DNA of 64,000 bases, taken from the sequence record NZ_CP072215.1; one strand, given 5' to 3'. The translations under genes and the position numbers were made by a program. This document shows, piece by piece, positions 19,986 to 42,559 of the stretch (position 1 is the stretch's first letter; each line of letters begins with the position of its first letter). Source of the stretch: a plasmid. The notes beneath the pieces are model-generated. The model worked only from the letters and a program-made list of their open reading frames with translations, ran no database searches and had not been told where the DNA came from.

Positions 19986-20528
19986 AGACCTAAACTCCTA
20001 ACCCCTTTAAATATCCCCAAAGCGATAACATAGAAATGACTGGGAAAATAAATTTTCCCTTCACATGCCCTATACGTACTTTCGGAAAAAGATTTTTCGG
20101 AAGTATGTGTTGATTTTCACGCTTTTTTATATGATTGGAAGGCGGTTCTGTTCATCTTCTGTATCCGAATTAGTTTTTCAGGGCGTTCCCTTCTGACCGG
20201 GCTATTCGTTGCAAGTCCTCGTTACCCTCCAGGCTTTTCCCTGCTATCCCTAACGCTCTACGCTCCGGCTATGCCGGAAGAGAGGTATGATGATTTTTTC
20301 CTGAACTGATAGGAACATTGCGAAGGTAGGCGTGGCCGGAACGCCCGATATTGAAAAGCCAAATCTCCATCCTCCCATTCCGGGAGGTAGTATTTACCAG
20401 TTCAATCCCGTTCTGATCCGTCTTTCCCGCTTTCTCTTCAATGCACTGTTCCCAATCAGTTGAGGAAAAATTTATGGTTGGGGCGACAAGCGATGTTTGC
20501 GAGTATTAATCTTTTAATTTTTGGCAGT

Positions 20529-21155
20529 ATGAAAACGAAGAGAACCGTATTTGAAGTGAATGACGTTTATCGGGTGATGGAAAACAGCGAGTTGATTTAT
20601 ACCTTGACGAACAGTGAGAAACTGAAACGTGAAGAATATAAGTATGAACAGATGGAAATAGAAGGATTGTGCTTGTCTGATGTACTGGAAACACTAACAC
20701 CCAGCCGTAAAAAAGTCGCTTATGCGGCGATTGAGCTATATAAACGGCTGAAAGAAGGGCAAGTTGAAAGTCCTGCGCTTTTATCCAGCAATAATGTTTA
20801 TAAAATGATGCATCCTGTTTTGTGCGATATAGCTACTGAAGAGATGTGGGTGCTGTTGCTGAACAGTTCGTCCAAACTCATCCGTAAAGTCCGTATCTCA
20901 TGCGGCGGGATAAATACCGCCCCTGTGGATATACGGGTTATCATGAAGCAGGCATTGTATTATAACGCCGTATCTTTTATCATGGTACATAACCACCCAT
21001 CAGGAGCACGCAAGCCCAGCAGTGCGGATGACCGCTTGACGGAAGCAGTTAAAAAAGCCGCTGAAACATTAGACATCCGTTTGGTTGACCATGTGATTGT
21101 GGCAGGCAATAACTATTATAGCTATGCGGACGAGGGAAGATTGCAAAATAGGTAA
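20529..21155 (+). CDS. RadC-like JAB/MPN domain protein
   Basis: JAMM motif HNHPSG...D and the HVIV C-terminus. Start placed at an internal Met; the upstream extension of the ORF is unlikely to be coding. Confidence 0.75.
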   Translation: MKTKRTVFEVNDVYRVMENSELIYTLTNSEKLKREEYKYEQMEIEGLCLSDVLETLTPSRKKVAYAAIELYKRLKEGQVESPALLSSNNVYKMMHPVLCDIATEEMWVLLLNSSSKLIRKVRISCGGINTAPVDIRVIMKQALYYNAVSFIMVHNHPSGARKPSSADDRLTEAVKKAAETLDIRLVDHVIVAGNNYYSYADEGRLQNR

Positions 21156-21322
21156 GGTGGACGGGAGAAATCCCGTCTGCCCGGGATTTCGGCTTCGGGG
21201 TTCTTTTTTGGCAGTCACCCCAAAAAAGAACCAAAAAAATGCTTCCCGGACTATCGGATGCGACATCGTAAAATACGCAAAGACGTGGCTTTTCAGAATA
21301 AATACATATCTTCGCGCCAAAG

Positions 21323-24871: not shown

Positions 24872-25120
24872 ATGGTAACAAACATTATTCAGATTGGAAA
24901 CAGCAAGGGGATAATACTTCCTTCCGAGATATTGAAACAGTTGCGTTTGTCCTTGAAATCGGCTGTGAGCATTTCTTTGGACGGGAACAATATTGTGATA
25001 AAGGCACAACCACGGCAGGGATGGGCGGAAGCTGCCAAACGTGCCCATGAGAATGGGGATGATGAGTTGCTTATCCCTGATGTGTTTGAGGATGAAAAGT
25101 TTGAGGATTGGACATGGTAG
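24872..25120 (+). CDS. mazE: MazE/AbrB-type antitoxin
   Basis: SpoVT/AbrB-like N-terminus (IQIGNSKGIILPSEIL). Overlaps the downstream toxin start. Confidence 0.7.
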   Translation: MVTNIIQIGNSKGIILPSEILKQLRLSLKSAVSISLDGNNIVIKAQPRQGWAEAAKRAHENGDDELLIPDVFEDEKFEDWTW

Positions 25121-25434
25121 AACAGTATGGAGTGTATTGGGTAGAGTTAGACCCTACCCGTGGGGGTGAAATGGCAAAGACACGGCCATGTGTTGTTGTA
25201 ACTCCTTCAGATTTGAATATGTACCTTACAATAGTAGTCATTGCTCCGATAACCTCCACCATAAGGAACTATCCTTACCGGGTTCTGTGTTCTGTAGCCG
25301 GGCGTGATGGGGAGATAGCCACGGATCAGATTCGCACGGTGGACAAAAGCCGGCTGAAAAGAAAGATTGGAGATTTGAATTTCAGTGAGATAAAAAGACT
25401 GAAGGAAGTGTTTCATCAAATGTTCTGTGAATAA
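25108..25434 (+). CDS. mazF: MazF/PemK-family endoribonuclease toxin
   Basis: GVYWVELDPTRGGEMAKTRPCVVV motif typical of PemK/MazF. Confidence 0.8.
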   Translation: MDMVEQYGVYWVELDPTRGGEMAKTRPCVVVTPSDLNMYLTIVVIAPITSTIRNYPYRVLCSVAGRDGEIATDQIRTVDKSRLKRKIGDLNFSEIKRLKEVFHQMFCE

Positions 25435-27724: not shown

Positions 27725-28430
27725 ATACTGTGTTTTTGCGTTCACGCAGTATTCTTTCCCACCCTCCCCTTCATCGGAATGACTGTTCTCATTTCCGGTT
27801 TACCCGTAGTCATCCGCTATGCGGCTGATTATGGGCAAACCAGAAAAGAGAAGTTCCAAACGTGGGCGGGATTGCAATGGTCATCATCCGGAGCTTCGGC
27901 ATTGCCGAAACAACCTCCTTCTTCCGTATTGCAGCCCCGTCCTTTTACCGTTTGTCCCGGCAGTCCGTTGCTAACCCGTTCCCCCCTGCCACTTGTGGCA
28001 GGGAGATAGGAATACGGTTTTGCAGGCAAAACCGTATGGCTTGTTTTACTTTCCGTACTGCCCTTTTCCTAGTTTTCTGCCTCCCTTAATGTGCGTTTTT
28101 CATAGCCCCATCTGAGACCCTTTGTTTTTGAACGGCAAATTTATTTCGGTGGATGGATACGAAAGAGTTCCGGTCTTCGCCCTTTGTCCCGAAAAAAATA
28201 ACGCCGGACGGCTTCGCTGTCCCCAACATTTTTTGTCGTCCAAAACTTTTCTTAATCCCTCCTTCCTTATTGTTGTGTGCCGTAAAAAAAAGGCTCATAA
28301 ACTCAGATGGGGCATGAAAGCTCAAAAAAAAAGTCGGCAGAAAGAAAAGGCCATCCCGGAAAGGGGTTTTAAAAAAAGGTCTTTAAATCTAGCTGAAGCA
28401 TAAAATTAGAAGTTTAACAATCCCAAAAAA
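27725..28430 (+). repeat. Conserved structured non-coding leader element, copy C1 (about 700 bp)
   Basis: More than 95% identical to 30790-31485 and 39895-40590. Internal ORFs are not frame-conserved between copies because of indels. Several hairpins show compensatory substitutions between copies. Confidence 0.85.
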
Positions 28431-30686: not shown

Positions 30687-30789
30687 AGCACATTCTCCCT
30701 TCTTTTGGATTAGGGAAGGGAGGGTATTTTGCTGTCCGCTACTTTTTGGCAAGCACCCCAAAAAAGTAGCAAAAAACGCTTGGAGTTAC

Positions 30790-31485
30790 TGGTAATCCCA
30801 TTAATTTGCGTTCACGCAGTATTCTTTCCCACCCTCCCCTTCATCGGAATGACTGTTCTCATTCCCGGTTTACCCGTAATCATCCGCTATGCGGCTGATT
30901 ATGGGTAAACCGGAAAAGAGAAGTTCCAAACGTGGGCGGGATTGCAATGGTCATCATCCGGAGCTTCGGCATTGCCGAAACAACCTCCTTCTTCCGTATT
31001 GCAGTCCCTTCCTTTTACCGTTTGTCCCGGCAGTCCGTTGCTAACCCGTTCCCCCCTGTCACTTGTGGCAGGGAGATAGGAGTATGGTTTTGCTTGCAAA
31101 ACCGTATGGCTTGTTTTACTTTCCGTACTGCCCTTTTCCTTGTTTTCTGCCTCCCCTAATGTGCTTTTTTCATAGCTCCATCTGAGAGCCTTTGTTTTTG
31201 AACGGCAAATTTATTTCGGTGGATGGATACGAAAGAGTTCCGGTCTTCGCCCTTTGTACCGAAAAAAATAACGCCGGACGGCTTCGCTGTCCCCAACATT
31301 TTTTGTCGTCCAAAACTTTTCTTAATCCCTCCTTCCTTATTGATGCGTGCCGTAAAAAAAAGGCTCATAAACTCAGATGGGGCATGAAAGCTCAAAAAAA
31401 AAGTCGGCAGAAAGAAAAGGCCATCCCGGAAAGGGGTTTAAAAAAAGGTCTTTAAATCTAGCTGAAGCATAAGTTTAATTTTAAT
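30790..31485 (+). repeat. Conserved structured non-coding leader element, copy C2
   Basis: See copy C1. A perfect stem CCGGTTTACCC...GGGTAAACCGG is present in this copy. Confidence 0.85.
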
Positions 31486-31497
31486 AGATAAAAGACT

Positions 31498-32064
31498 ATG
31501 GCACATCAGAGTAAATATCCTAGTTTAGACAGACAATGGCATAAGATGATGTTTTCTTTCTTTGAGTATCTTCCTATGCAATATCGGCAGGCAACGGAAA
31601 GAGAATGGCAAATTCGTAAGATGATATGGAGTTTTAAGGATGGAAAAGCTTATTTGAATATAGCTTGGATGATAGCGAATAAGTTACATCAAGTTTTTGG
31701 TGATGATGTTAAGAATATTGTTTTTGCTTGTGTTCCGGCTTCTTCCGCTGATAAGAATGAACTTCGTTATAAGGGGTTTGCTTCGGCTGTGTGTAAGTTT
31801 TCAGGTGCTATCAATGCGTATGAACATATACGTGTCAGTGGAGATCGTTTGGCTATTCACGAGAAATTTGACAGCAAGTCGCTTCAAAAAGTACAAGTGA
31901 TAGAATTTGACAAGGACTTTTTTCGGGGTAAGAAAATCTTGGTATTTGACGATATTTTAACAAAAGGGTTTTCGTATGCTCGTTTCGCATGTCAGTTGGA
32001 AAAAATAGGAGGTGAGGTTTTGGGAGGTTTCTTTTTAGGTAAAACAGTTGTCCGTATGTTATAA
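31498..32064 (+). CDS. Phosphoribosyltransferase (type I PRTase) domain protein
   Basis: PRPP-binding loop (KILVFDDILTKG) near the C-terminus. 188 aa. Confidence 0.6.
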   Translation: MAHQSKYPSLDRQWHKMMFSFFEYLPMQYRQATEREWQIRKMIWSFKDGKAYLNIAWMIANKLHQVFGDDVKNIVFACVPASSADKNELRYKGFASAVCKFSGAINAYEHIRVSGDRLAIHEKFDSKSLQKVQVIEFDKDFFRGKKILVFDDILTKGFSYARFACQLEKIGGEVLGGFFLGKTVVRML

Positions 32065-32680
32065 GATGAAAGAAAAAGAGAGTTATATAGAGAAGCAGAA
32101 GGATATCTTTGGAGATACTACTTGGTTCACTTATCGTTATGAGGTGAATGGAATGGTGTATGAAACTTCGGCAGGTTCGTTGGATATATGTAGAAAGGCA
32201 CGTGATAAATGGATGAAAATGATGTCCGTTGCTTTTACCGGTCATAGAACGATACGAACAAATAAATATGCTTTGTCCGTATCGTTGAATGAAGAGGTAC
32301 GTTTCTGCTATGAGAATGGAATCCGTTTTTTCTATATTGGTTGTGCGGTTGGATTTGACATGATGGCTGCTCATACCGTACTTGAACAAAGGAAACAATA
32401 TCCCGATATGGTTTTGGTGGCGGTTGTTCCTTATGTCGGGCAAGATGTGTATTTCAACAAAGAGGACAAACAGAGGTATGCTGATATTTTGCGCCAAGCC
32501 GACAAGGTGGTAGTTCTATCCGAATATTATTATGCCCAATGCTATGCCCACCGTAATGATTACATGATTTCACACGCCTGTAGGCTGATTGCCTATTGGG
32601 ATGGAAAATCTGCCGGAGGAACTTCTTATACGTTTAACAAGGCACAAAAAAAGAAATTGGTGATATACAATCTGTTTTGA
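32048..32680 (+). CDS. SLOG-superfamily (DUF1273/YpsA-like) protein
   Basis: FTGHR motif, a Rossmann-like GxxxG region and a WDGKSAGGT motif typical of DUF1273/SLOG. Overlaps the PRTase gene's 3' end. Confidence 0.55.
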   Translation: MSVCYKMKEKESYIEKQKDIFGDTTWFTYRYEVNGMVYETSAGSLDICRKARDKWMKMMSVAFTGHRTIRTNKYALSVSLNEEVRFCYENGIRFFYIGCAVGFDMMAAHTVLEQRKQYPDMVLVAVVPYVGQDVYFNKEDKQRYADILRQADKVVVLSEYYYAQCYAHRNDYMISHACRLIAYWDGKSAGGTSYTFNKAQKKKLVIYNLF

Positions 32681-32845
32681 TTCAGATTGTATATCGTTGT
32701 TTTCCAGCGGTATGATCAAACGTGGCGATGTCATACTGTCTGGTTGCTGTAAGTGCTAATACTTCCGATGCAAAAGAGAAAGACACAATAAATATGAAAA
32801 GCAATGATAGATGAATTTTACTTAATTGTTTTACCTTTGTAAAAC

Positions 32846-34165
32846 ATTAGTGTCCCATTAAAATTGGGACGAATTAAAAATTAAATAAACTTGGCCCATT
32901 TGGTCCGAATCGTTCTTTGTCATTTTGAAATTTAGTTTTATCAAAGAGGTCTCTCAGATGAGTCTTATCAGTCAATGAGATGCTCAGTATTTGTAACACT
33001 TCATATGTACTTCTGTTCAGTTGCATATCGTGTTGAATGATTGCCACCAAACAGTAAGCGCATATAGCAGCATATATCTGTATTCGAACAGCATTCTCTG
33101 TAGTTCCCCAAAATCTTTTGATTTTAAGGTGCTGCTTGAGCCATTTGAAAAACAGCTCTACCTGCCAGCGATTTTTATAAAGTTCAGCAACTTGAAGCGC
33201 AGATATATGCATCGCATTGGTTATGAATGTAAATTCTCGTTCTTGTTCTTCATCCCAATATTTAACCAATCTAAGTGGCTCTGGATAATATTGTTTAGGA
33301 TAGAATCCTGTCAGAAATACACTTGCGTCTGAAAGCACATTCTTAGGCAGCCTACGTTTCCATTGGATGGATTTGTACCCGAGATTCTTTTTTGCTCTGA
33401 CAACAAAGTAGGCTTCAATTTGATGAATTTTATACAGTATTTTGAAGTTGTTATAACCGCGGTCAAAGATGTAATAAGAGCTTGGTTCATAAGGAATTTC
33501 AATCATAACTTTAGAATCGTGTACGGATGCTTCCGTGATATGAAAGAATGCAGGAATCTGTGTTTCCACATCATATAATGTATGCACTTTGATACCACCT
33601 TTCTTTTTGCGGAATTTTGCCCACCAAAAGACTGAAAGGCACAGGTCAATAGTAGTCGAATCGAAAGCATAAACGTTACCGCCAAGTTTGAAAATATGAT
33701 TAGCACACTTTTGTCGTGCTTCGCTAACCAGGTAGTAAGCATATTCTTCAAAGATGTGATAGTCTCTATCTTGATTTGCTCTTGCCAGCGATGACTTTGA
33801 TACATTTTTACCCATTCCTAAATGATAACATTTGGAATGATGAGCTTCAAGAGCAACTATCAAATCTCGCAGACTTTCACGATTAGAAAGTTGACCAAAC
33901 ATCAAAGCAAGTAGTTGATTCCAGCAGGTGAAGTGCTTCACATATTTATCACCATCATACTTGGTGACTATGCGGTTAAACTTACTTCGATTCAGAAATG
34001 AAGCCAATTGAGCGAAAACGTATTTGTCTTGGAACATATGCCATCGGATTAATCTGATGCAAAGCTACAAATTCAAGTCCGTTCGCTCGGAAAATCGCTG
34101 TAACTAACTAAATTTCAAATATTTCAAAGAACTCTTTTAGATTTTAATGGGACAACAATGTTTGT
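32846..34165 (-). mobile_element. IS4-family insertion sequence, complete with 20-bp imperfect terminal inverted repeats and a 9-bp TTTGTAAAA target duplication
   Basis: IRL CATTAGTGTCCCATTAAAAT at about 32846. IRR is ATTTTAATGGGACAACAATG at about 34146, matching 18 of 20 positions. TTTGTAAAA flanks both ends. Confidence 0.75.
32874..34037 (-). CDS. IS4-family DDE transposase
   Basis: 387-aa ORF filling the IS. DDE-type transposase with the IS4 family YREK-like C-terminus. Confidence 0.85.
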   Translation of the reverse strand: MFQDKYVFAQLASFLNRSKFNRIVTKYDGDKYVKHFTCWNQLLALMFGQLSNRESLRDLIVALEAHHSKCYHLGMGKNVSKSSLARANQDRDYHIFEEYAYYLVSEARQKCANHIFKLGGNVYAFDSTTIDLCLSVFWWAKFRKKKGGIKVHTLYDVETQIPAFFHITEASVHDSKVMIEIPYEPSSYYIFDRGYNNFKILYKIHQIEAYFVVRAKKNLGYKSIQWKRRLPKNVLSDASVFLTGFYPKQYYPEPLRLVKYWDEEQEREFTFITNAMHISALQVAELYKNRWQVELFFKWLKQHLKIKRFWGTTENAVRIQIYAAICAYCLVAIIQHDMQLNRSTYEVLQILSISLTDKTHLRDLFDKTKFQNDKERFGPNGPSLFNF

Positions 34166-34473
34166 AAAAGGTAAAACAATATGCGTTTTTCAGATACAGA
34201 GAACAATATGACCTTTTGCATAGGTGTGTGTTGGTTAGGAACTCCAAATATGGAGTCGTTGCAGAAAATAATGATGAACTTGAATATTATTGATAAGGAT
34301 GGAAACAATGGAAGCTAATGAACTGATGCGATATGCCTATGAATTACTGCAAGGGCATTCGAATGAAGAATGTGCCCGAATATTAAGAGAAGTGGTGGCC
34401 GAGTGTCAGGTGTGTATAAAGAACTGTGAAGAAGGTGTTTTCGAAAATATGCTAAAGTAATAACAACAAGAAT

Positions 34474-34923
34474 ATGGAAATTACTCATAAAAATCAAGGA
34501 GAACTTGACTCAACCATGCTCCCATTCGTGATGAGAGAGCTGGTAGAACTGGTCATGAAGAAAAAGGCATTGCCTTTAGGCGATGCACTGTATTATATAT
34601 ATTCTTCCAAGTTGTATAAATCTTTGCTGGATAAGAGTACCAAGTTATGGTATTCAAGTACATTGTCGCTTTATGAAACATTGGAGAAGGAAAAAACAGA
34701 AGAAAAACGACGGTATAACGGTGACACGAAGATCCTGCTTTTCAAGATGTTCTGCATTGAGAATTATAGGGAGGAAAAGAAACAAAGTGCGGAAGAAACC
34801 TTGTTGTTGTTTTCGGACTATGGGGTTTTTGATTTTTTGGATGAGACTTTTGAAATGCTTCATACCCAAGACCCCGAATATATATTAGATACTATAACGA
34901 CTTATATCAATAAAAGAAAATGA
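34474..34923 (+). CDS. DUF3791-like protein
   Basis: 149 aa, translationally coupled (ATGA) to a DUF3990-like gene. This pair commonly occurs together. Confidence 0.5.
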   Translation: MEITHKNQGELDSTMLPFVMRELVELVMKKKALPLGDALYYIYSSKLYKSLLDKSTKLWYSSTLSLYETLEKEKTEEKRRYNGDTKILLFKMFCIENYREEKKQSAEETLLLFSDYGVFDFLDETFEMLHTQDPEYILDTITTYINKRK

Positions 34924-35402
34924 GACTATTTCATGGATCTACAGTTACCGTGAAACGCCCTAATATACAGAAAGGACGGAAGGCTACGGACTTTGGGAAG
35001 GGATTTTATACGACAACCAACTTTGAACAAGCAAAAAAATGGGCTTTGTTGAAGAAGAACAGGGAACAGAGCGAAAAAGCAATCGTCTCTGTTTATGAAG
35101 TTCCCGATGATATTCTTGATAGGGAATATCCGGTTCTTCGGTTTATGGGTGCAACAAAAGAATGGCTGGAGTTTGTTGTCAACAACCGCAGAGGAAGAGA
35201 AAACGGTGACTATGACCTAATAATGGGGCCTGTCGCAAATGACCAGTTATATGCGACAATTCGGCTTTATGAACAGAGAGTTGTTACGGCTGAAGCCGCT
35301 ATTGAGATGCTGAAAGCGCATAAGTTGTTCAATCAGCTTTCATTTCATACGGTAACAGTCGCTTTGTTGTTGAAGTTTGTTGAATCAATTGAAGTGGGGT
35401 AA
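34920..35402 (+). CDS. DUF3990-like protein
   Basis: 160 aa with the MRLFHGST N-terminus typical of DUF3990. Confidence 0.5.
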   Translation: MRLFHGSTVTVKRPNIQKGRKATDFGKGFYTTTNFEQAKKWALLKKNREQSEKAIVSVYEVPDDILDREYPVLRFMGATKEWLEFVVNNRRGRENGDYDLIMGPVANDQLYATIRLYEQRVVTAEAAIEMLKAHKLFNQLSFHTVTVALLLKFVESIEVG

Positions 35403-35460: not shown

Positions 35461-36270
35461 GCGTCCACTTAGTTTTTTCCCACCCACCCTTTCAGCGGAG
35501 TGACTGCCCGGCAGTCTGTTGCTTACCCATATGTCCTAGCCTTTTAGGGCTGTAGATAGGTAGTTGGATATTTCGCTGCCAAATCGGCAGTCCGCTTCAA
35601 TCGTTTGCTTGCTTTTCTCCGAGTGGAGCCTTTCTGCTTTTCCGGTGGTGTAATCTTCTTTTATTGGAAACAGGTGTAGTGGCTGTATGCCTGTGTGGTT
35701 ATGTTCTCCCGCAGAATCCGCAAGTCAGTTCTTCCGTTGCAGCTTTTCATTTTATCGTGCAGTCACTTTTTTCGATACGTGGAATATGATATGCTTCATT
35801 CTTCGGCTTCATTTTTTTAAAAGGAATTGCAGATGTTTCTTCCGGTGTGTCGATAGGCGGCTGACCATCTTTTCGGGATGTGCCATGCTTGCTGTCTAAC
35901 CGGTTGTTTTTTGCATCCTTTCCAAACCTGTTACTGATTTTCAAGTTTTGTCTTTTTCATATCATTTTTTAGGGAAGTCAAATCATTTTCCGTTGCAAAT
36001 ATAGATTGTTGCTAACCCCTTTTACGGGGATAAGGGGACGATTCACAAACACCACGTTGTTATTCGTCTGAAATCTTCCTTTTTTTGCCTTGCACAAAAA
36101 GCGTATTTAACCCGAATTATTCGTTGCCATCTTCACCAATAAAAAAGTTACAAATCTTCCTTTTTCCGGCCAGCATAAAAAGAGTATTTATATCTTTTTT
36201 CATGGTGTCCCCCAAAGCCAACAATCAGTTATTGCACTGTAAAATTGATTAATTAACTTCTAAAAAATCA
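35461..36270 (+). repeat. Leader-element family, variant A (direct repeat of 38495-39460 with an internal deletion)
   Basis: More than 95% identical to the B copy over about 800 bp. The 5' end (TTTCCCACCCACCCTTTCAGCGGAGTGACTG) is homologous to the start of the C copies. Confidence 0.85.
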
Positions 36271-36780: not shown

Positions 36781-37119
36781 ATGAAAAGATTATATGATAC
36801 ATATACAATATACGAATTTTCAGATGAATGTATTGTAAAGGAAATCTGCAAGAGAGTTAAGTCTATAAGACTTAGCTGCTGTTTTTCCCAGCAAGAATTT
36901 GCGGATAAGGCAGGAGTATCTATCGTTACTATTAAGAGAATAGAATCTTGTAAAGTAAGTGATATTGCCCTAAGTACATTGCTTAAGATTTTGCGTATAA
37001 GTGGAACTCTTGAAGGCGTTGTCGGTTTGGTTCCGGAACTTCCAGACTCCCCTTTCCTAATCAATGAAAAAACAGGTAAAAGAATACAAAGAATTAACGG
37101 TAAACGTAAGATGGTATGA
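36781..37119 (+). CDS. hipB: XRE/HipB-type HTH antitoxin
   Basis: HTH motif (QQEFADKAGVSIVTIKRIE). Stop overlaps the hipA start. Confidence 0.6.
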   Translation: MKRLYDTYTIYEFSDECIVKEICKRVKSIRLSCCFSQQEFADKAGVSIVTIKRIESCKVSDIALSTLLKILRISGTLEGVVGLVPELPDSPFLINEKTGKRIQRINGKRKMV

Positions 37120-38393
37120 AGAAAGAGCCGATTATAGTGAATGTATATCTGTGGGGGACTTGCATTGGCAAATTGAATTGGGACTTTGAAAAGCATTGTT
37201 CTGTATTCCAATTTACGGATGAATATAGGAAACAAGATTATGATATATGCCCTTCCACACACCCTAAGAGAACCCCTTTGTTTGCGTCTTTCTATGGGAA
37301 TAAAGATAAATTATATCAAGGGCTTCCGGAATTTCTTGCAGATGCGCTTCCTGACAAATGGGGGGCTTCCCTATTTGACCAATGGCTCACGGATAATAAT
37401 ATAAAGGTTACGGAATCATTGCCTCTATTGAAGCTCTCTTATATTGGCAAGAGGGCTATGGGAGCATTGGAATTTGAACCGGAATTTAATGATGATGCCA
37501 TCCATGAGTCAGTAAATATGTCATCATTGGCAACTTTGGCTTCTAAAATATATAATGATCGAGATGCTGCTGTCATATCACCGGAGGATAGCCTCACGAT
37601 GAAAAAGTTGATATATCTTGGAACTTCTGCCGGTGGCATGCGCCCGAAGGCAGTGATTGCCTATAATCTCGAAACGGAAGAGTTTCGTTCCGGCCAGGTG
37701 GATTTGCCTGAAAATTTTAAGCAGTATATCATCAAATTTAAAGAAGCAGATGACTCTCCTACCACAGAGATAGAAATGGTATATAGCGAAATGGCAAAGG
37801 CGGCGGGAATCAACATGATGCCATGCTTCCTGAAAGAAATTGATGGAAGAAATCATTTCGTAACGGAAAGATTTGATCGTAAGAATGGAGAAAAGCTCTT
37901 TAGTCAGACCCTTGCGGCCATTATGCCGGGTGCAGATGATTATATGAAGCTGTGTTGGATAGCAGAGACTCTGAAACTTCCCCAGGAAGACAAAGATCAG
38001 ATATTTATCAGAATGGTATTTAATTATGTCGCAGGTATATCCGATGATCATAATAAGAACATATCGTTTATCATGGATAAGGCAGGGGTATGGCGTTTAT
38101 CACCTGCATATGATGTAATGTTCACGGCAAATACATGGGAAAATTCTTCAGCACACATTCATTCGATGGGCGTGATGGGCAAAAGGTCTGCCTTGACTAC
38201 AAGTGATTTCGTCAACTTTGCCGAGGATTTTGTAGAGGAGCCCGAAAAGAAGATATTACAGGTGTTCGATGCTGTAAGCAAATTTCAATCGTTATGCGCC
38301 ACGTATGGCATAGATAAGGCTATATTTGATAAAATCCAACATGTATTGGATGGATTGGTCACTGATGATTTGGATTTGCTGCAATTAACTTAA
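37116..38393 (+). CDS. hipA: HipA-family serine/threonine kinase toxin
   Basis: HipA N- and C-domains, with the catalytic loop DDHNKN. Confidence 0.8.
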   Translation: MKKEPIIVNVYLWGTCIGKLNWDFEKHCSVFQFTDEYRKQDYDICPSTHPKRTPLFASFYGNKDKLYQGLPEFLADALPDKWGASLFDQWLTDNNIKVTESLPLLKLSYIGKRAMGALEFEPEFNDDAIHESVNMSSLATLASKIYNDRDAAVISPEDSLTMKKLIYLGTSAGGMRPKAVIAYNLETEEFRSGQVDLPENFKQYIIKFKEADDSPTTEIEMVYSEMAKAAGINMMPCFLKEIDGRNHFVTERFDRKNGEKLFSQTLAAIMPGADDYMKLCWIAETLKLPQEDKDQIFIRMVFNYVAGISDDHNKNISFIMDKAGVWRLSPAYDVMFTANTWENSSAHIHSMGVMGKRSALTTSDFVNFAEDFVEEPEKKILQVFDAVSKFQSLCATYGIDKAIFDKIQHVLDGLVTDDLDLLQLT

Positions 38394-38494: not shown

Positions 38495-39459
38495 GTTTCC
38501 CACCCACCCTTTCAGCGGAGTGACTGTCCCCGTTTCAGGATTTCTCATAGTCACTCGCAGGCTCCGTGATTGTGTGAAATCCAGGAATGGGGAAGGCAAA
38601 GGAGAGAGGCATATCCGGTCTGCTTTCGGAGCTTCGGCCACATCGAGACAACCTCTTTCCGGCGGCTATGCCACTCTCCTTTTATTTGCCCGGCAGTCTG
38701 TTGCTTACCCATATGCCCCAGCCTTTTAGGGCTGTATATAGGTAGTCGGATATTTCGCCGCTAAATCGGCAGTCCGCTTCAATCGTTTGCTTGCTTTTCT
38801 CCGAGTGGATGCCTTTCTGTTTTTCCGGTTGTATAATCTTCTTTTTCCGGAAACAGTTGTAGTGGCTGTATGCCTGTATGGTTATGTTCTCCCCGCAGAA
38901 TCCGCAAGTCTGTTCTTCCGTTGCAGCCTTTCATTTTATCGTGCAGTCACTTTTTTCGATACGTGGAATATTGTATGCTTCATTCTTCGGCTTCATTTTT
39001 TTAAAAGGAATTGCAGAGGTTTCTTCCGGTGTGTCGATAGGCGGCTGACCATATTTTCGGAATGTGCCATGCTTGCTGTCTGACCGGTTGTTTTTTGCAT
39101 CCTTTCCAAACCTGTTGCTGATTTTCAAGTTTTGTCTTTTTCATATCATTTTTTAGGGAAGTCAAATCATTTTCCGTTGCAAATATAGATTGTTGCTAAC
39201 CCCTTTTACGGGGATAAGGGGACGATTCACAAACACCACGTTGTTATTCGTCTGAAATCTTCCTTTTTTTGCCTTGCATAAAAAGCGTATTTAACCCGAA
39301 TTATTTGCTGCCATCTTCACCAATAAAAAAGTTACAAATCTTCCTTTTTCCGGCCAGCATAAAAAGAGTATTTATATCTTTTTTCATGGTGTCCCCCAAA
39401 GCCAACAATCAGTTATTGCACTGTAAAATTGATTAATTAACTTCTAAAAAATCAGAGAT
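38495..39459 (+). repeat. Leader-element family, variant B (full-length relative of variant A)
   Basis: Contains an extra roughly 170-bp internal segment homologous to the C-copy core (GGAGCTTCGGCC..CGAGACAACCTC). Confidence 0.85.
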
Positions 39460-39894: not shown

Positions 39895-40590
39895 TCCGAG
39901 AGTGTTTTTGCGTTCACGCAGTATTCTTCCCCACCCTCCCCTTCATCGGAATGACTGTTCTCATTCCCGGTTTGCCCGTAGTCATCCGCTATGCGGCTGA
40001 TTATGGGCAAACCAGAAAAGAGAAGTTCCAAACGTGGGCGGGATTGCAATGGTCATCATCCGGAGCTTCGGCATTGCCGAAACAACCTCCTTCTTCCGTA
40101 TTGCAGTTCCTTCCTTTTACCGTTTGTCCCGGCAGTCCGTTGCTAACCCGTTCCCCCCCTGTCACTTGTGGCAGGGAGATAGGAATACGGTTTTGCAAGC
40201 AAAACCGTATGGTTTGTTTTACTTTCCGTACTGCCCTTTTCCTTGTTTTCTGCCTCCCCTAATGTGCTTTTTTCATAGCTCCATCTGAGATCCTTTGTTT
40301 TTGAACGGCAAATTTATTTCGGTGGATGGATACGAAAGAGTTCCGGTCTTCGCCCCTTTGTCCCGAAAAAAATAACGCCGGACGGCTTCGCTGTCCCCAA
40401 CATTTTTTGTCGTCCAAAACTTTTCTTAATCCCTCCTTCCTTATTGTTGTGTGCCGTAAAAAAAAGGCTCATAAACTCAGATGGGGCATGAAAGCTCAAA
40501 AAAAAAGTCGGCAGAAAGAAAAGGCCATCCCGGAAAGGGGTTTTAAAAAAAGGTCTTTAAATCTAGCTGAAGCATAAAATTAGAAGTTTA
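39895..40590 (+). repeat. Conserved structured non-coding leader element, copy C3
   Basis: See copy C1. Confidence 0.85.
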
Positions 40591-40612
40591 ACAAACTAAG
40601 TAGCAGAAGTAT

Positions 40613-42460: not shown

Positions 42461-42559
42461 TGAATAGCCCACACATCTAAATGTGTGGGAGTTCTTTTTT
42501 GGAAGACGCCCAAAAAAGAACCCCAAAAAACGTTGTCGCTACACATCGTTACGCTCGGA

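What the first reader, a model, noticed from the sequence alone, without database searches (positions are those of the whole stretch)
31498..32680. PRTase + SLOG (DUF1273/YpsA-like) two-gene module
A type I phosphoribosyltransferase-fold protein (PRPP loop VFDDILTKG) overlaps a SLOG-superfamily protein (FTGHR, GGT motifs). The pair has its own copy of the leader element. PRTase and SLOG domains both act on nucleotides, and such pairings have been proposed as components of nucleotide-centred conflict systems. I am not aware of this exact pairing on a Bacteroidales ICE being characterised. Its position among anti-defence-type genes makes a role as a defence or counter-defence nucleotide-modifying module plausible. 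An IS4 element has inserted 165 bp downstream.
Basis: partly seen in the sequence, partly recalled or inferred. Interest (0 to 1): 0.7.

Follow-up and report, generated by a model that had tools for sequence, protein, structure and literature searches.

The report
Shosta-like PRTase–SLOG plasmid cassette
A tightly linked gene pair on a widely shared gut Bacteroidales conjugative plasmid encodes a phosphoribosyltransferase related to the toxin of the Shosta anti-phage system plus a YpsA-type nucleotide-binding partner; it is most likely an untested toxin–antitoxin-like conflict module and a variant of a known kind.

Summary
ORF1 (31498-32064) is a 188-aa stand-alone type I PRTase. ORF2 (ATG 32066-32680) is a YpsA-family SLOG protein. 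A ~690-nt structured leader (30805-31490) precedes them, and an IS4-family element starts ~146 nt downstream.

The PRTase belongs to a large family (1,666 representatives). That family includes the PRTase domains of proteins encoded next to bona fide ShosA (DprA-like) and HAD hydrolase genes, i.e. Shosta systems (31-37% identity). Its closest solved structure is ComFC. The partner is YpsA-type, not ShosA, and no pyrophosphatase domain is present, so the pair is not a canonical Shosta.

Linkage is very strong. 140/141 intact PRTases have an intact partner immediately downstream: a YpsA-SLOG, a RadC-JAB protein, or both. Partner type follows PRTase clade. Intact SLOGs sometimes occur without the PRTase.

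The module is always cargo of mobile elements: conjugative plasmids/ICEs (SLOG form) and prophage-like elements (RadC form). The window's accessory region (20000-44900) is 100% identical to circular 72-111 kb plasmids of four Bacteroidales species, so "ICE" is inexact.

Best reading (confidence 0.45): a Shosta-related toxin–antitoxin-like module. The YpsA–PRTase pairing was already described computationally in 2019, and nothing is known experimentally.

The parts
30805..31490 (+). About 690-nt non-coding 'leader' directly upstream of the PRTase. It is one of three near-identical copies in the window (also 27735-28420 and 39907-40594).
   Evidence: Direct-repeat families D1-D3. Folds very strongly as a single strand on either strand (z=-9.7 and -9.4). 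No Rfam family matches. Its 3' half is conserved at 75-78% upstream of the PRTase in L006, L009, L011 and L033. A structured upstream 500 nt is general across 23 loci (mean z -4.2, against 0.04 for CDS controls).
31498..32064 (+). Stand-alone type I phosphoribosyltransferase, 188 aa. It is ShosT/ComFC-like and has no zinc finger and no pyrophosphatase domain.
32066..32680 (+). YpsA-family SLOG protein, 204 aa. Residues 1-52 form an extra beta-sheet plus helix that is found only in the window's clade.
   Evidence: Pfam PF06908 E=2.7e-20. AF2 pLDDT 93. Foldseek: YpsA 2nx2 E=1.4e-12, ShosA 8zva E=4.8e-7. Invariant F57, G59-H60-R61, G96-F97-D98 and G184-G185-T186 (T58 is conserved in 90% or more in A2). 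PGAP names it 'SLOG family protein' WP_005868759.1.
32827..34178 (-). IS4-family insertion sequence flanking the module. It is not part of the module.
   Evidence: Transposase 32874-34037 has DDE_Tnp_1 + DUF4372. About 40-bp terminal inverted repeats, and homology to IS-free loci L002/L003 breaks at these points. The same insertion is present in the identical plasmids.
20460..21155 (+). RadC-like JAB gene on the same plasmid. It is a homologue (40-46% identity) of the protein that replaces or accompanies the SLOG next to the PRTase in other elements.
   Evidence: Pfam RadC PF04002 E=5e-39. tblastn matches to the downstream partner in 32 loci.

Best explanation
The pair is a minimal, Shosta-related two-gene conflict module, carried as a self-contained cassette (leader, PRTase, SLOG) in the accessory array of a conjugative Bacteroidales plasmid.

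Shown:
- The first gene encodes a PRPP-loop-bearing PRTase. It is homologous to the PRTase domain of ShosT-type toxins.
- The second gene encodes a YpsA-clade SLOG with an intact nucleotide-binding pocket.
- The two genes are almost never separated.

Inferred:
- As in ShosTA, the PRTase is the harmful effector. It would consume PRPP or phosphoribosylate an unknown acceptor and so disturb nucleotide metabolism or DNA replication.
- The co-translated SLOG keeps it harmless. In other lineages a RadC-JAB protein would do this.
- Neutralisation could work by processing or sequestering the PRTase product, or by repairing its consequences, as the SLOG protein ShosA does through ssDNA and RecA.
- Loss of the plasmid, or a shut-off of host expression by an invader, would free the PRTase. 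The module would then act as plasmid addiction and/or abortive defence for the host of the element.
For: 1. Homology to a proven toxin.
- PADLOC ShosT E=1.2e-10.
- The exhaustive profile search finds 1,666 relatives.
- All 10 long relatives tested hit ShosT, and 7 also hit PsyrT.
- 5/5 long relatives examined sit in operons with DprA and a HAD hydrolase. Their DprA proteins are bona fide ShosA (E 1e-59 to 1e-68).
- The window PRTase is 31-37% identical to their PRTase domains (E 1e-27 to 1e-35).

2. The DD motif needed for ShosT toxicity (D331A/D332A, PMC11961720) is invariant here (D151/D152).

3. The partner is a SLOG, like ShosA and PsyrA. ShosA is its second-best PDB structural match.

4. 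Obligate, asymmetric linkage.
- 140/141 intact PRTases have an intact partner 0-50 nt downstream.
- 6/72 intact SLOGs lack an intact PRTase (Fisher p=0.0066).
- Partner type is strictly clade-specific.

5. The neighbourhood is TA/defence cargo.
- HipBA, MazEF and DUF3791/DUF3990 lie on this plasmid.
- HicA, AbiH and DUF4160/DUF2442 lie beside the RadC form in prophage-like elements.
- TA modules are enriched in leading regions generally (PMC11541004).
Against: - No experiment exists for any member of this PRTase-YpsA clade.
- The module fails two of three structural criteria for Shosta. The partner is not DprA/ShosA: there is no PADLOC ShosA hit and hhalign probability is 4%. There is also no PPase/HAD domain.
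- The array in which it sits (SSB, ArdC, MTase, primase; all co-oriented and each with a structured leader) looks like an establishment/anti-defence island.
- The polyvalent-protein literature places PRTase and RadC domains among early-acting effectors of invading elements.
- RadC has no known antitoxin activity.
- The intactness asymmetry rests on few, phylogenetically non-independent loci.
Confidence: 0.45

Rival explanations
1. Early-expressed establishment or counter-defence module. The cassette is transcribed soon after plasmid entry. The PRTase and the SLOG act on small nucleotides in the recipient: the YpsA-type SLOG binds or cleaves cADPR-type immune signals, and the PRTase makes or consumes a nucleotide. 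The effect is to blunt host defences such as Thoeris-like systems or NAD/nucleotide depletion.
For: - It sits in a co-oriented array with SSB, an orphan N6-MTase, LPD28 and PcfJ/K, with ArdC nearby on the opposite strand.
- SSB lies upstream of the PRTase in 34/76 loci.
- Each cassette has a highly structured leader, reminiscent of Frpo-type single-strand promoters (PMC11541004).
- YpsA-clade SLOGs of viruses have been proposed to degrade cADPR-like signals (PMC9503650).
- ThsA SLOG domains are structural matches.
- Invasive-element PRTases have been proposed to make or sense a nucleotide at DNA entry (PMC5512222).
Against: - The closest sequence relatives with known function are defence toxins, not anti-defence proteins.
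- The leader's function, and which strand folds, is undetermined.
- oriT and the direction of transfer were not located.
- The RadC form lies in the accessory region of prophage-like elements next to HicA and AbiH rather than among early genes.
- The strict dependence of the PRTase on a partner is not predicted by this model.
Confidence: 0.25
2. ComFC/DprA-like handling of incoming single-stranded DNA. The PRTase-fold protein binds and protects the transferred strand. The SLOG (or RadC) loads or modulates RecA or other factors, as a plasmid-encoded analogue of the late-competence trio ComFC, DprA and RadC.
For: - ComFC binds and protects ssDNA. The same paper cites reports that C. jejuni and S. 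pneumoniae ComFC interact with DprA, a SLOG protein (PMC9005727).
- The module is linked to SSB and lies near the primase and ArdC.
- The alternative partner is RadC. That radC is competence-induced in some species is my own knowledge and was not checked here.
Against: - There is no Cys4 zinc finger. The protein has only three scattered Cys and no CxxC motif.
- No ComF family model matches.
- The partner is YpsA-clade, not DprA.
- The RadC form is abundant in prophage-like elements, which inject dsDNA.
- Strict conservation of the catalytic DD and of the phosphate-binding loop suggests catalysis or PRPP binding is under selection.
Confidence: 0.12
3. Ordinary nucleotide-salvage genes (an APRT/HGPRT-like enzyme plus a LOG-type phosphoribohydrolase) that happen to be carried on a plasmid.
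For: Weak matches to OPRT, HGPRT and APRT models over the PRPP loop. LOG-like proteins appear among distant structural matches of the SLOG.
Against: - All salvage-enzyme matches are far below the curated cutoffs (12.7-16.8 bits against 150-224).
- The family is restricted to mobile elements.
- The SLOG is YpsA-type. It lacks the LOG PGGxGTxxE glutamate (sequence GGTSYTFNKA) and has no Lysine_decarbox/LOG Pfam hit.
Confidence: 0.02

Closest known systems
Shosta (ShosTA) anti-phage toxin-antitoxin system (PMC11961720; PMC12961424)
   Same: Both are two-gene modules with a PRPP-binding type I PRTase effector that carries the DD motif, plus a SLOG-superfamily partner. The window PRTase matches PADLOC's ShosT model and is 31-37% identical to the PRTase domains of proteins encoded beside bona fide ShosA. 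Both are found in mobile or defence contexts.
   Different: - ShosT is 424 aa, with an N-terminal HAD-like pyrophosphatase domain. In relatives the HAD is a separate or DprA-fused gene. Here the PRTase is a 188-aa single domain with no HAD nearby.
- ShosA is a DprA-family ssDNA/RecA-binding dimer of about 300 aa. Here the partner is a 155-205-aa YpsA-clade SLOG (hhalign probability 4%) or a RadC-JAB.
- In 4 of the 5 relatives examined, the DprA gene precedes the PRTase. Here the PRTase comes first.
YpsA-PRTase gene-pair branch of the YpsA family (Brzozowski et al. 2019, PMC6459960; this paper cites Burroughs et al. 2015 for the SLOG/YpsA classification; that paper could not be read here)
   Same: This is the same thing at the level of description: a YpsA-clade SLOG strongly coupled in a gene pair with a PRTase and assigned to nucleotide-centred conflict systems.
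   Different: The published description is a one-sentence computational observation.
ComFC (ComF) of natural transformation (H. pylori, PDB 7P0H; PMC9005727)
   Different: There is no 4-Cys zinc finger, no ComF model match and no competence-gene neighbourhood. It is cargo of mobile elements.
PsyrTA (RqlHI) toxin-antitoxin/defence system
   Same: It also combines a PRTase domain in the toxin with a DprA-like SLOG partner. Seven of ten long relatives of the window PRTase also match the PRTase part of the PsyrT model, and their DprA neighbours match PsyrA.
   Different: PsyrT carries a RecQ-like helicase fused to the PRTase. The window protein itself did not reach the PsyrT model.
B. subtilis YpsA (PDB 2NX2)
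   Same: It has the same Pfam family and fold (TM 0.78 on the target) and the conserved GxD/E pocket motif.
   Different: Firmicute YpsA is a chromosomal gene syntenic with gpsB, and its overexpression blocks cell division. The window protein is plasmid-borne, paired with a PRTase and has an extra 52-residue N-terminal module.

Membership tests
Shosta (ShosTA) | Toxin with a ShosT-type PRTase domain (PADLOC ShosT model; catalytic DD in the PRPP loop) | tested here: met
   PADLOC PDLC03962 E=1.2e-10 over residues 58-184. D151/D152 invariant. 31-37% identity to PRTase domains encoded next to bona fide ShosA.
Shosta (ShosTA) | Adjacent DprA-family antitoxin (ShosA; PF02481 or the PADLOC ShosA models) | tested here: not met
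   No ShosA or DprA hit at E<=1. Profile-profile comparison with genuine ShosA gives probability 4%, with only the GxAxGxD motif aligned. ShosA is only a fold-level match (Foldseek E=4.8e-7).
Shosta (ShosTA) | HAD-like pyrophosphatase domain fused to, or encoded beside, the PRTase | tested here: not met
   The protein is a 188-aa single-domain model. The neighbours are the leader, the SLOG and the IS. Relatives do have HAD genes.
Shosta (ShosTA) | PRTase toxic, toxicity neutralised by the partner, protection from phage | not testable with these tools
   Only indirect evidence is available: 140/141 intact PRTases keep an intact partner, against 66/72 for the reverse.
ComF/ComFC competence proteins | PRT-fold C-terminal domain with the three PRPP-binding loops | tested here: met
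ComF/ComFC competence proteins | N-terminal 4-Cys zinc finger | tested here: not met
   The sequence has Cys only at positions 78, 99 and 165, with no CxxC pair (translation). The N-terminus is modelled as a strand plus a helix.
ComF/ComFC competence proteins | Match to a curated ComF family model and a competence-gene context | tested here: not met
   No ComF model appears among the NCBIfam hits at E<=1. The context is plasmid accessory cargo.
YpsA family of the SLOG superfamily (PF06908) | Pfam PF06908 above the gathering score, YpsA fold and the conserved GxD/E pocket motif | tested here: met
   73.5 bits against a cutoff of 27.7. 2nx2 E=1.4e-12, TMt 0.78. G96-F97-D98 invariant.
YpsA-PRTase gene-pair branch (Brzozowski 2019) | YpsA-clade SLOG conserved in a gene pair with a PRTase | tested here: met
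   47/76 PRTase-anchored genome loci have the SLOG downstream. 72/76 informative SLOG-anchored loci have the PRTase upstream.
LOG (cytokinin riboside 5'-monophosphate phosphoribohydrolase) family | LOG/Lysine_decarbox Pfam match and the PGGxGTxxE catalytic motif | tested here: not met
   There is no such Pfam hit. The motif region reads AGGTSYTFNKA, without the Glu. LOG structures are only weak matches (E>=0.012).

The most novel reading that the evidence does not exclude
The PRTase and its partners form a writer/eraser pair. The PRTase would attach ribose-5-phosphate through an N-glycosidic bond to a non-canonical acceptor: a base, a signalling molecule, or a residue on DNA or protein. The YpsA-SLOG would act as a LOG-like phosphoribohydrolase and the RadC-JAB as a metal hydrolase, each removing that adduct. 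This would explain why PRTases recur with SLOG partners of different clades (ShosA, PsyrA, YpsA). It would explain why RadC can substitute. It would also give the long-enigmatic RadC family its first biochemical function.
Probability: 0.12. Interest if true: 0.8.

Novelty: new variant of a known kind. Interest (0 to 1): 0.5.

Why it matters
The cassette sits on a conjugative plasmid found at 100% identity in at least four human-gut Bacteroidales species, so whatever it does is being spread very actively.

It links three threads that have been studied separately:
- Shosta/PsyrTA defence toxins
- the uncharacterised YpsA-PRTase gene pair
- the enigmatic RadC-JAB proteins of plasmids and phages

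Because the module is a minimal version (PRTase domain only, small SLOG partner), it could be a tractable system for two open questions. What does the ShosT-type PRTase actually make or deplete? And how does a SLOG or RadC protein counteract it?

If it instead proves to be a counter-defence device, it would add a new enzyme pair to the anti-defence repertoire of gut plasmids.

Tried and rejected
- Rfam gathering-threshold scan of the whole window: no family matches the leader or anything else.
- Sequence-profile search of the PRTase alignment against PDB sequences: only PRPP-loop matches, ShosT E=0.14. This was uninformative for ranking.
- Profile-profile comparison of the YpsA partner with ShosA: no meaningful alignment. 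The idea that the partner is a shortened ShosA was rejected.
- Pfam on the long N-terminal regions of ShosT-like relatives: nothing found.
- Strand asymmetry of leader folding, to decide between an RNA leader and transferred-strand DNA: both strands fold equally well.
- Sigma-70-type promoter scan: not above shuffled expectation, and not appropriate for Bacteroides promoters anyway.
- Second copy of the PRTase, the SLOG or the IS in the window: none.
- Burroughs et al. 2015 could not be read because it is not held.
- My first architecture tally mislabelled 27 loci as 'PRT only', an artefact of the longest-ORF rule. It was corrected with tblastn and HMM coordinates.
- I did not locate the relaxase or oriT, so the 'leading region' status of the array is an analogy, not a result.

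Full report
OBSERVATION

ORF1 (31498-32064, 188 aa):
- It contains KILVFDDILTKGFSYA, a type I PRTase PRPP loop.
- Pfam's generic PRTase model matches only weakly (E=0.014, below the cutoff).
- NCBIfam salvage-enzyme models are far below threshold.
- PADLOC's ShosT model matches residues 58-184 at E=1.2e-10.
- An AlphaFold model built on 32 homologues is confident (pLDDT 88.5, pTM 0.85), and all of its top structural matches are PRTases.

ORF2:
- The mechanical ORF starts at TTG 32048 and overlaps ORF1.
- The conserved N-terminus and the PGAP annotation of an identical plasmid put the start at ATG 32066, one base after the ORF1 stop.
- It is a clear YpsA-family SLOG: PF06908 E=2.7e-20, model pLDDT 93, best PDB match B. 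subtilis YpsA 2nx2 at E=1.4e-12.

Flanking features:
- The leader upstream (30805-31490) is one of three ~690-nt copies in the window.
- The IS4-family element downstream has ~40-bp inverted repeats at about 32825-32865 and 34140-34180, so it starts ~146 nt after the SLOG stop.

WHAT THE PRTase IS

Close family:
- Close homologues (46-100% identity, ~185 aa) number 143 clusters by single-sequence search and 603 by profile search.
- Invariant positions include FKDG 46-49, P80, R90, H121, F150-D151-D152, G157 and G176-G177.

Wider family:
- An exhaustive HMM search of 1.84 billion representatives finds 1,666 relatives, 1,124 of them at E<=1e-10.
- Many are 400-1,060-aa proteins that carry this domain at the C-terminus.
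- Their N-terminal parts match no Pfam family.
- All ten tested hit PADLOC ShosT, and seven also hit the PRTase end of PsyrT.

Genomic context of the long relatives:
- Five of five examined lie in operons with a DprA-family gene and a HAD-type hydrolase. The HAD is either a separate gene or fused to DprA. Two operons (L080, L081) are next to methyltransferase/restriction genes.
- Those DprA proteins are bona fide ShosA (E 1e-59 to 1e-68).
- Pairwise, the window PRTase is 31-37% identical to their PRTase domains (E 1e-27 to 1e-35).
- The window protein is therefore a genuine homologue of Shosta-type toxins.

Structure:
- This fits the 2017 description of a distinct, ComFC-like group of PRTases from invasive elements, including solo versions on conjugative elements (PMC5512222).
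- It lacks ComFC's Cys4 zinc finger and ShosT's pyrophosphatase domain (PMC9005727; PMC11961720).

WHAT THE PARTNER IS

- The SLOG keeps F57, G59-H60-R61, G96-F97-D98 (the YpsA GxD/E pocket motif) and G184-G185-T186 invariant.
- Its second-best PDB match is ShosA itself (8zva, E=4.8e-7).
- At profile level it shares only the GxAxGxD signature with genuine ShosA (hhalign probability 4%), and it does not reach PADLOC's ShosA models.
- It is therefore a different SLOG clade sitting in the same position next to the PRTase as ShosA does.
- Residues 1-52 form an extra three-stranded sheet plus helix. This module is absent from most homologues, which are ~155-160 aa.

LINKAGE

PRTase-anchored genome loci (76 loci, nearly all Bacteroidales):
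- about 47 have the YpsA-SLOG immediately downstream
- about 23 have a RadC-like JAB protein instead (HNHPSG motif; the window's RadC homologue scores PF04002 at 5e-39)
- 2 have PRTase-RadC-SLOG
- 2 end at a contig edge
- 2 are decayed

Other tests:
- Partner type is perfectly clade-specific on a PRTase similarity tree. The window groups with both SLOG-type and three-gene variants.
- Reciprocally, 72 of 76 informative SLOG-anchored metagenome loci have the PRTase upstream.
- Across independently anchored sets, 140/141 intact PRTases keep an intact partner, whereas 6/72 intact SLOGs lack an intact PRTase (Fisher p=0.0066).
- That asymmetry is what a toxin/antidote relationship predicts. The loci are not phylogenetically independent, however.

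CONTEXT

Plasmid identity:
- The window's 20.0-44.9 kb region is 100% identical over its full length to the circular plasmids of B. zhangwenhongii (76 kb) and B. cellulosilyticus (72.5 kb). It is 100% identical over 83% and 69% of its length to those of P. distasonis (111 kb) and P. vulgatus (90 kb). All four include the IS insertion.
- PGAP already names the genes 'phosphoribosyltransferase' and 'SLOG family protein'.

Layout of the window:
- The plus-strand array holds, in order, RadC, a recombinase on the opposite strand, MazEF, HU, LPD28 with an orphan N6-MTase, PRTase-SLOG, the IS4 element, DUF3791/DUF3990, SSB, HipBA, a second SSB and PcfK/PcfJ.
- The minus-strand genes from 43 to 58 kb are Toprim, T4CP, ArdC, TraN, TraM and TraG.

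Related cassettes elsewhere:
- They lie next to the same transfer backbone (L084).
- They occur on a Rep3/ParA plasmid-like element as the three-gene form (L085).
- They lie beside an LPD29 protein (L086).
- The RadC-linked clade is abundant in IMG/VR: 311 hits, and 79 of the 80 kept are PRT-RadC.
- In annotated contigs it follows a phage structural module (S49/ClpP prohead protease) and lies beside HicA, AbiH and DUF4160/DUF2442.
- The family is therefore cargo of plasmids, ICEs and prophage-like elements.

THE LEADER

- It folds far better than shuffles on either strand (z=-9.7 and -9.4).
- A structured upstream 500 nt is general across 23 diverse loci (mean z -4.2, against 0.04 for coding controls).
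- It matches no Rfam family.
- By analogy with Frpo-type single-strand promoters in leading regions (PMC11541004), it may drive early expression or priming. I did not locate oriT and could not resolve which strand folds.

MECHANISM

I favour (0.45) a Shosta-related toxin-antitoxin-like module.
- Shown: homology to the toxin, conservation of its catalytic motif, a SLOG partner, obligate asymmetric linkage and TA/defence neighbours.
- Inferred: toxicity, how it is neutralised and what triggers it.
- In ShosTA the PRTase DD motif is required for killing. ShosA neutralises without binding the toxin, through ssDNA and RecA.

Rivals:
- An early establishment/counter-defence enzyme pair (0.25).
- ComFC/DprA-like handling of incoming ssDNA (0.12).
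- Ordinary salvage enzymes (0.02).
- A writer/eraser reading is the most novel possibility not excluded (0.12). In it the SLOG or RadC hydrolyses the PRTase's N-glycosidic product.

NOVELTY

- The YpsA-PRTase pair was reported computationally in 2019 (PMC6459960).
- Invasive-element PRTases were described in 2017.
- No member of the pair has been tested experimentally.
- It fails two structural criteria for Shosta membership, so I file it as a new variant of a known kind. Interest is 0.5.

Noticed in passing
window 27735-28420, 30805-31490, 39907-40594 (type A); 35476-36190 and 38496-39374 (type B): Long (~690-720 nt) repeated non-coding leaders precede almost every accessory cassette: LPD28-MTase, PRTase-SLOG, PcfK/J, HipBA and SSB. 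They are extremely structured as single strands (z about -9.5 on both strands) and match no Rfam family. A structured upstream region is general in related loci (mean z -4.2). They are candidate single-strand promoters or priming sites, or long structured 5' leaders. PGAP calls small minus-strand 'hypothetical' ORFs inside them, which are probably spurious.
   Followed up: partly
window 20000-44900 (probably the whole window): The region is 100% identical to circular plasmids of four species: Bacteroides zhangwenhongii, B. cellulosilyticus, Parabacteroides distasonis and Phocaeicola vulgatus (72-111 kb). The match is full-length in the first two and covers 83% and 69% in the other two. The element is therefore a very recently and widely transferred conjugative plasmid rather than an ICE. 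MOB-suite labels these plasmids 'non-mobilizable' although TraG, TraM, TraN and T4CP genes are present.
   Followed up: partly
L008-L035 (genome loci), L168-L246 (IMG/VR), L248-L250: A whole clade of this PRTase family is paired with a RadC-like JAB protein instead of the SLOG. It lies in ~36-45 kb prophage-like elements just after the structural genes, next to HicA, AbiH and DUF4160/DUF2442. Three-gene PRTase-RadC-SLOG cassettes also exist (L004, L005, L085). This may be a functional lead for the uncharacterised RadC family.
   Followed up: partly
L077, L080-L083: Shosta variants in which the HAD-type pyrophosphatase is a separate gene or is fused to ShosA (DprA::HAD, ~500 aa). Their PRTase proteins carry large N-terminal regions (up to ~890 aa) with no Pfam match. 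L080 has three tandem PRTase paralogues (467, 790 and 878 aa) plus an ExoVII large-subunit gene.
   Followed up: no
window 34474-35402: The DUF3791 and DUF3990 genes overlap by 4 nt (ATGA), a TA-like arrangement. They lie between the IS and a type B leader. Their function was not examined.
   Followed up: no
window 21197-21239, 30735-30777, 42488-42530: A conserved GC-rich hairpin followed by an A/T run recurs at the 3' ends of cassettes (repeat family D11). These are probably terminators that delimit the cassettes. A second terminator-like hairpin lies at 30692-30725.
   Followed up: no
window 32066-32221 (SLOG residues 1-52): An N-terminal three-stranded sheet plus helix is appended to the SLOG core only in the window's clade and its nearest relatives (204-214 aa, against ~155-162 aa elsewhere). 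It has no family match.
   Followed up: no
window 24872-25434 and 36781-38393: Two further TA modules lie in the same array. MazE/MazF-type genes are annotated on the identical plasmid. HTH-HipA was identified by Pfam. The accessory array therefore holds at least three or four TA-like pairs.
   Followed up: no
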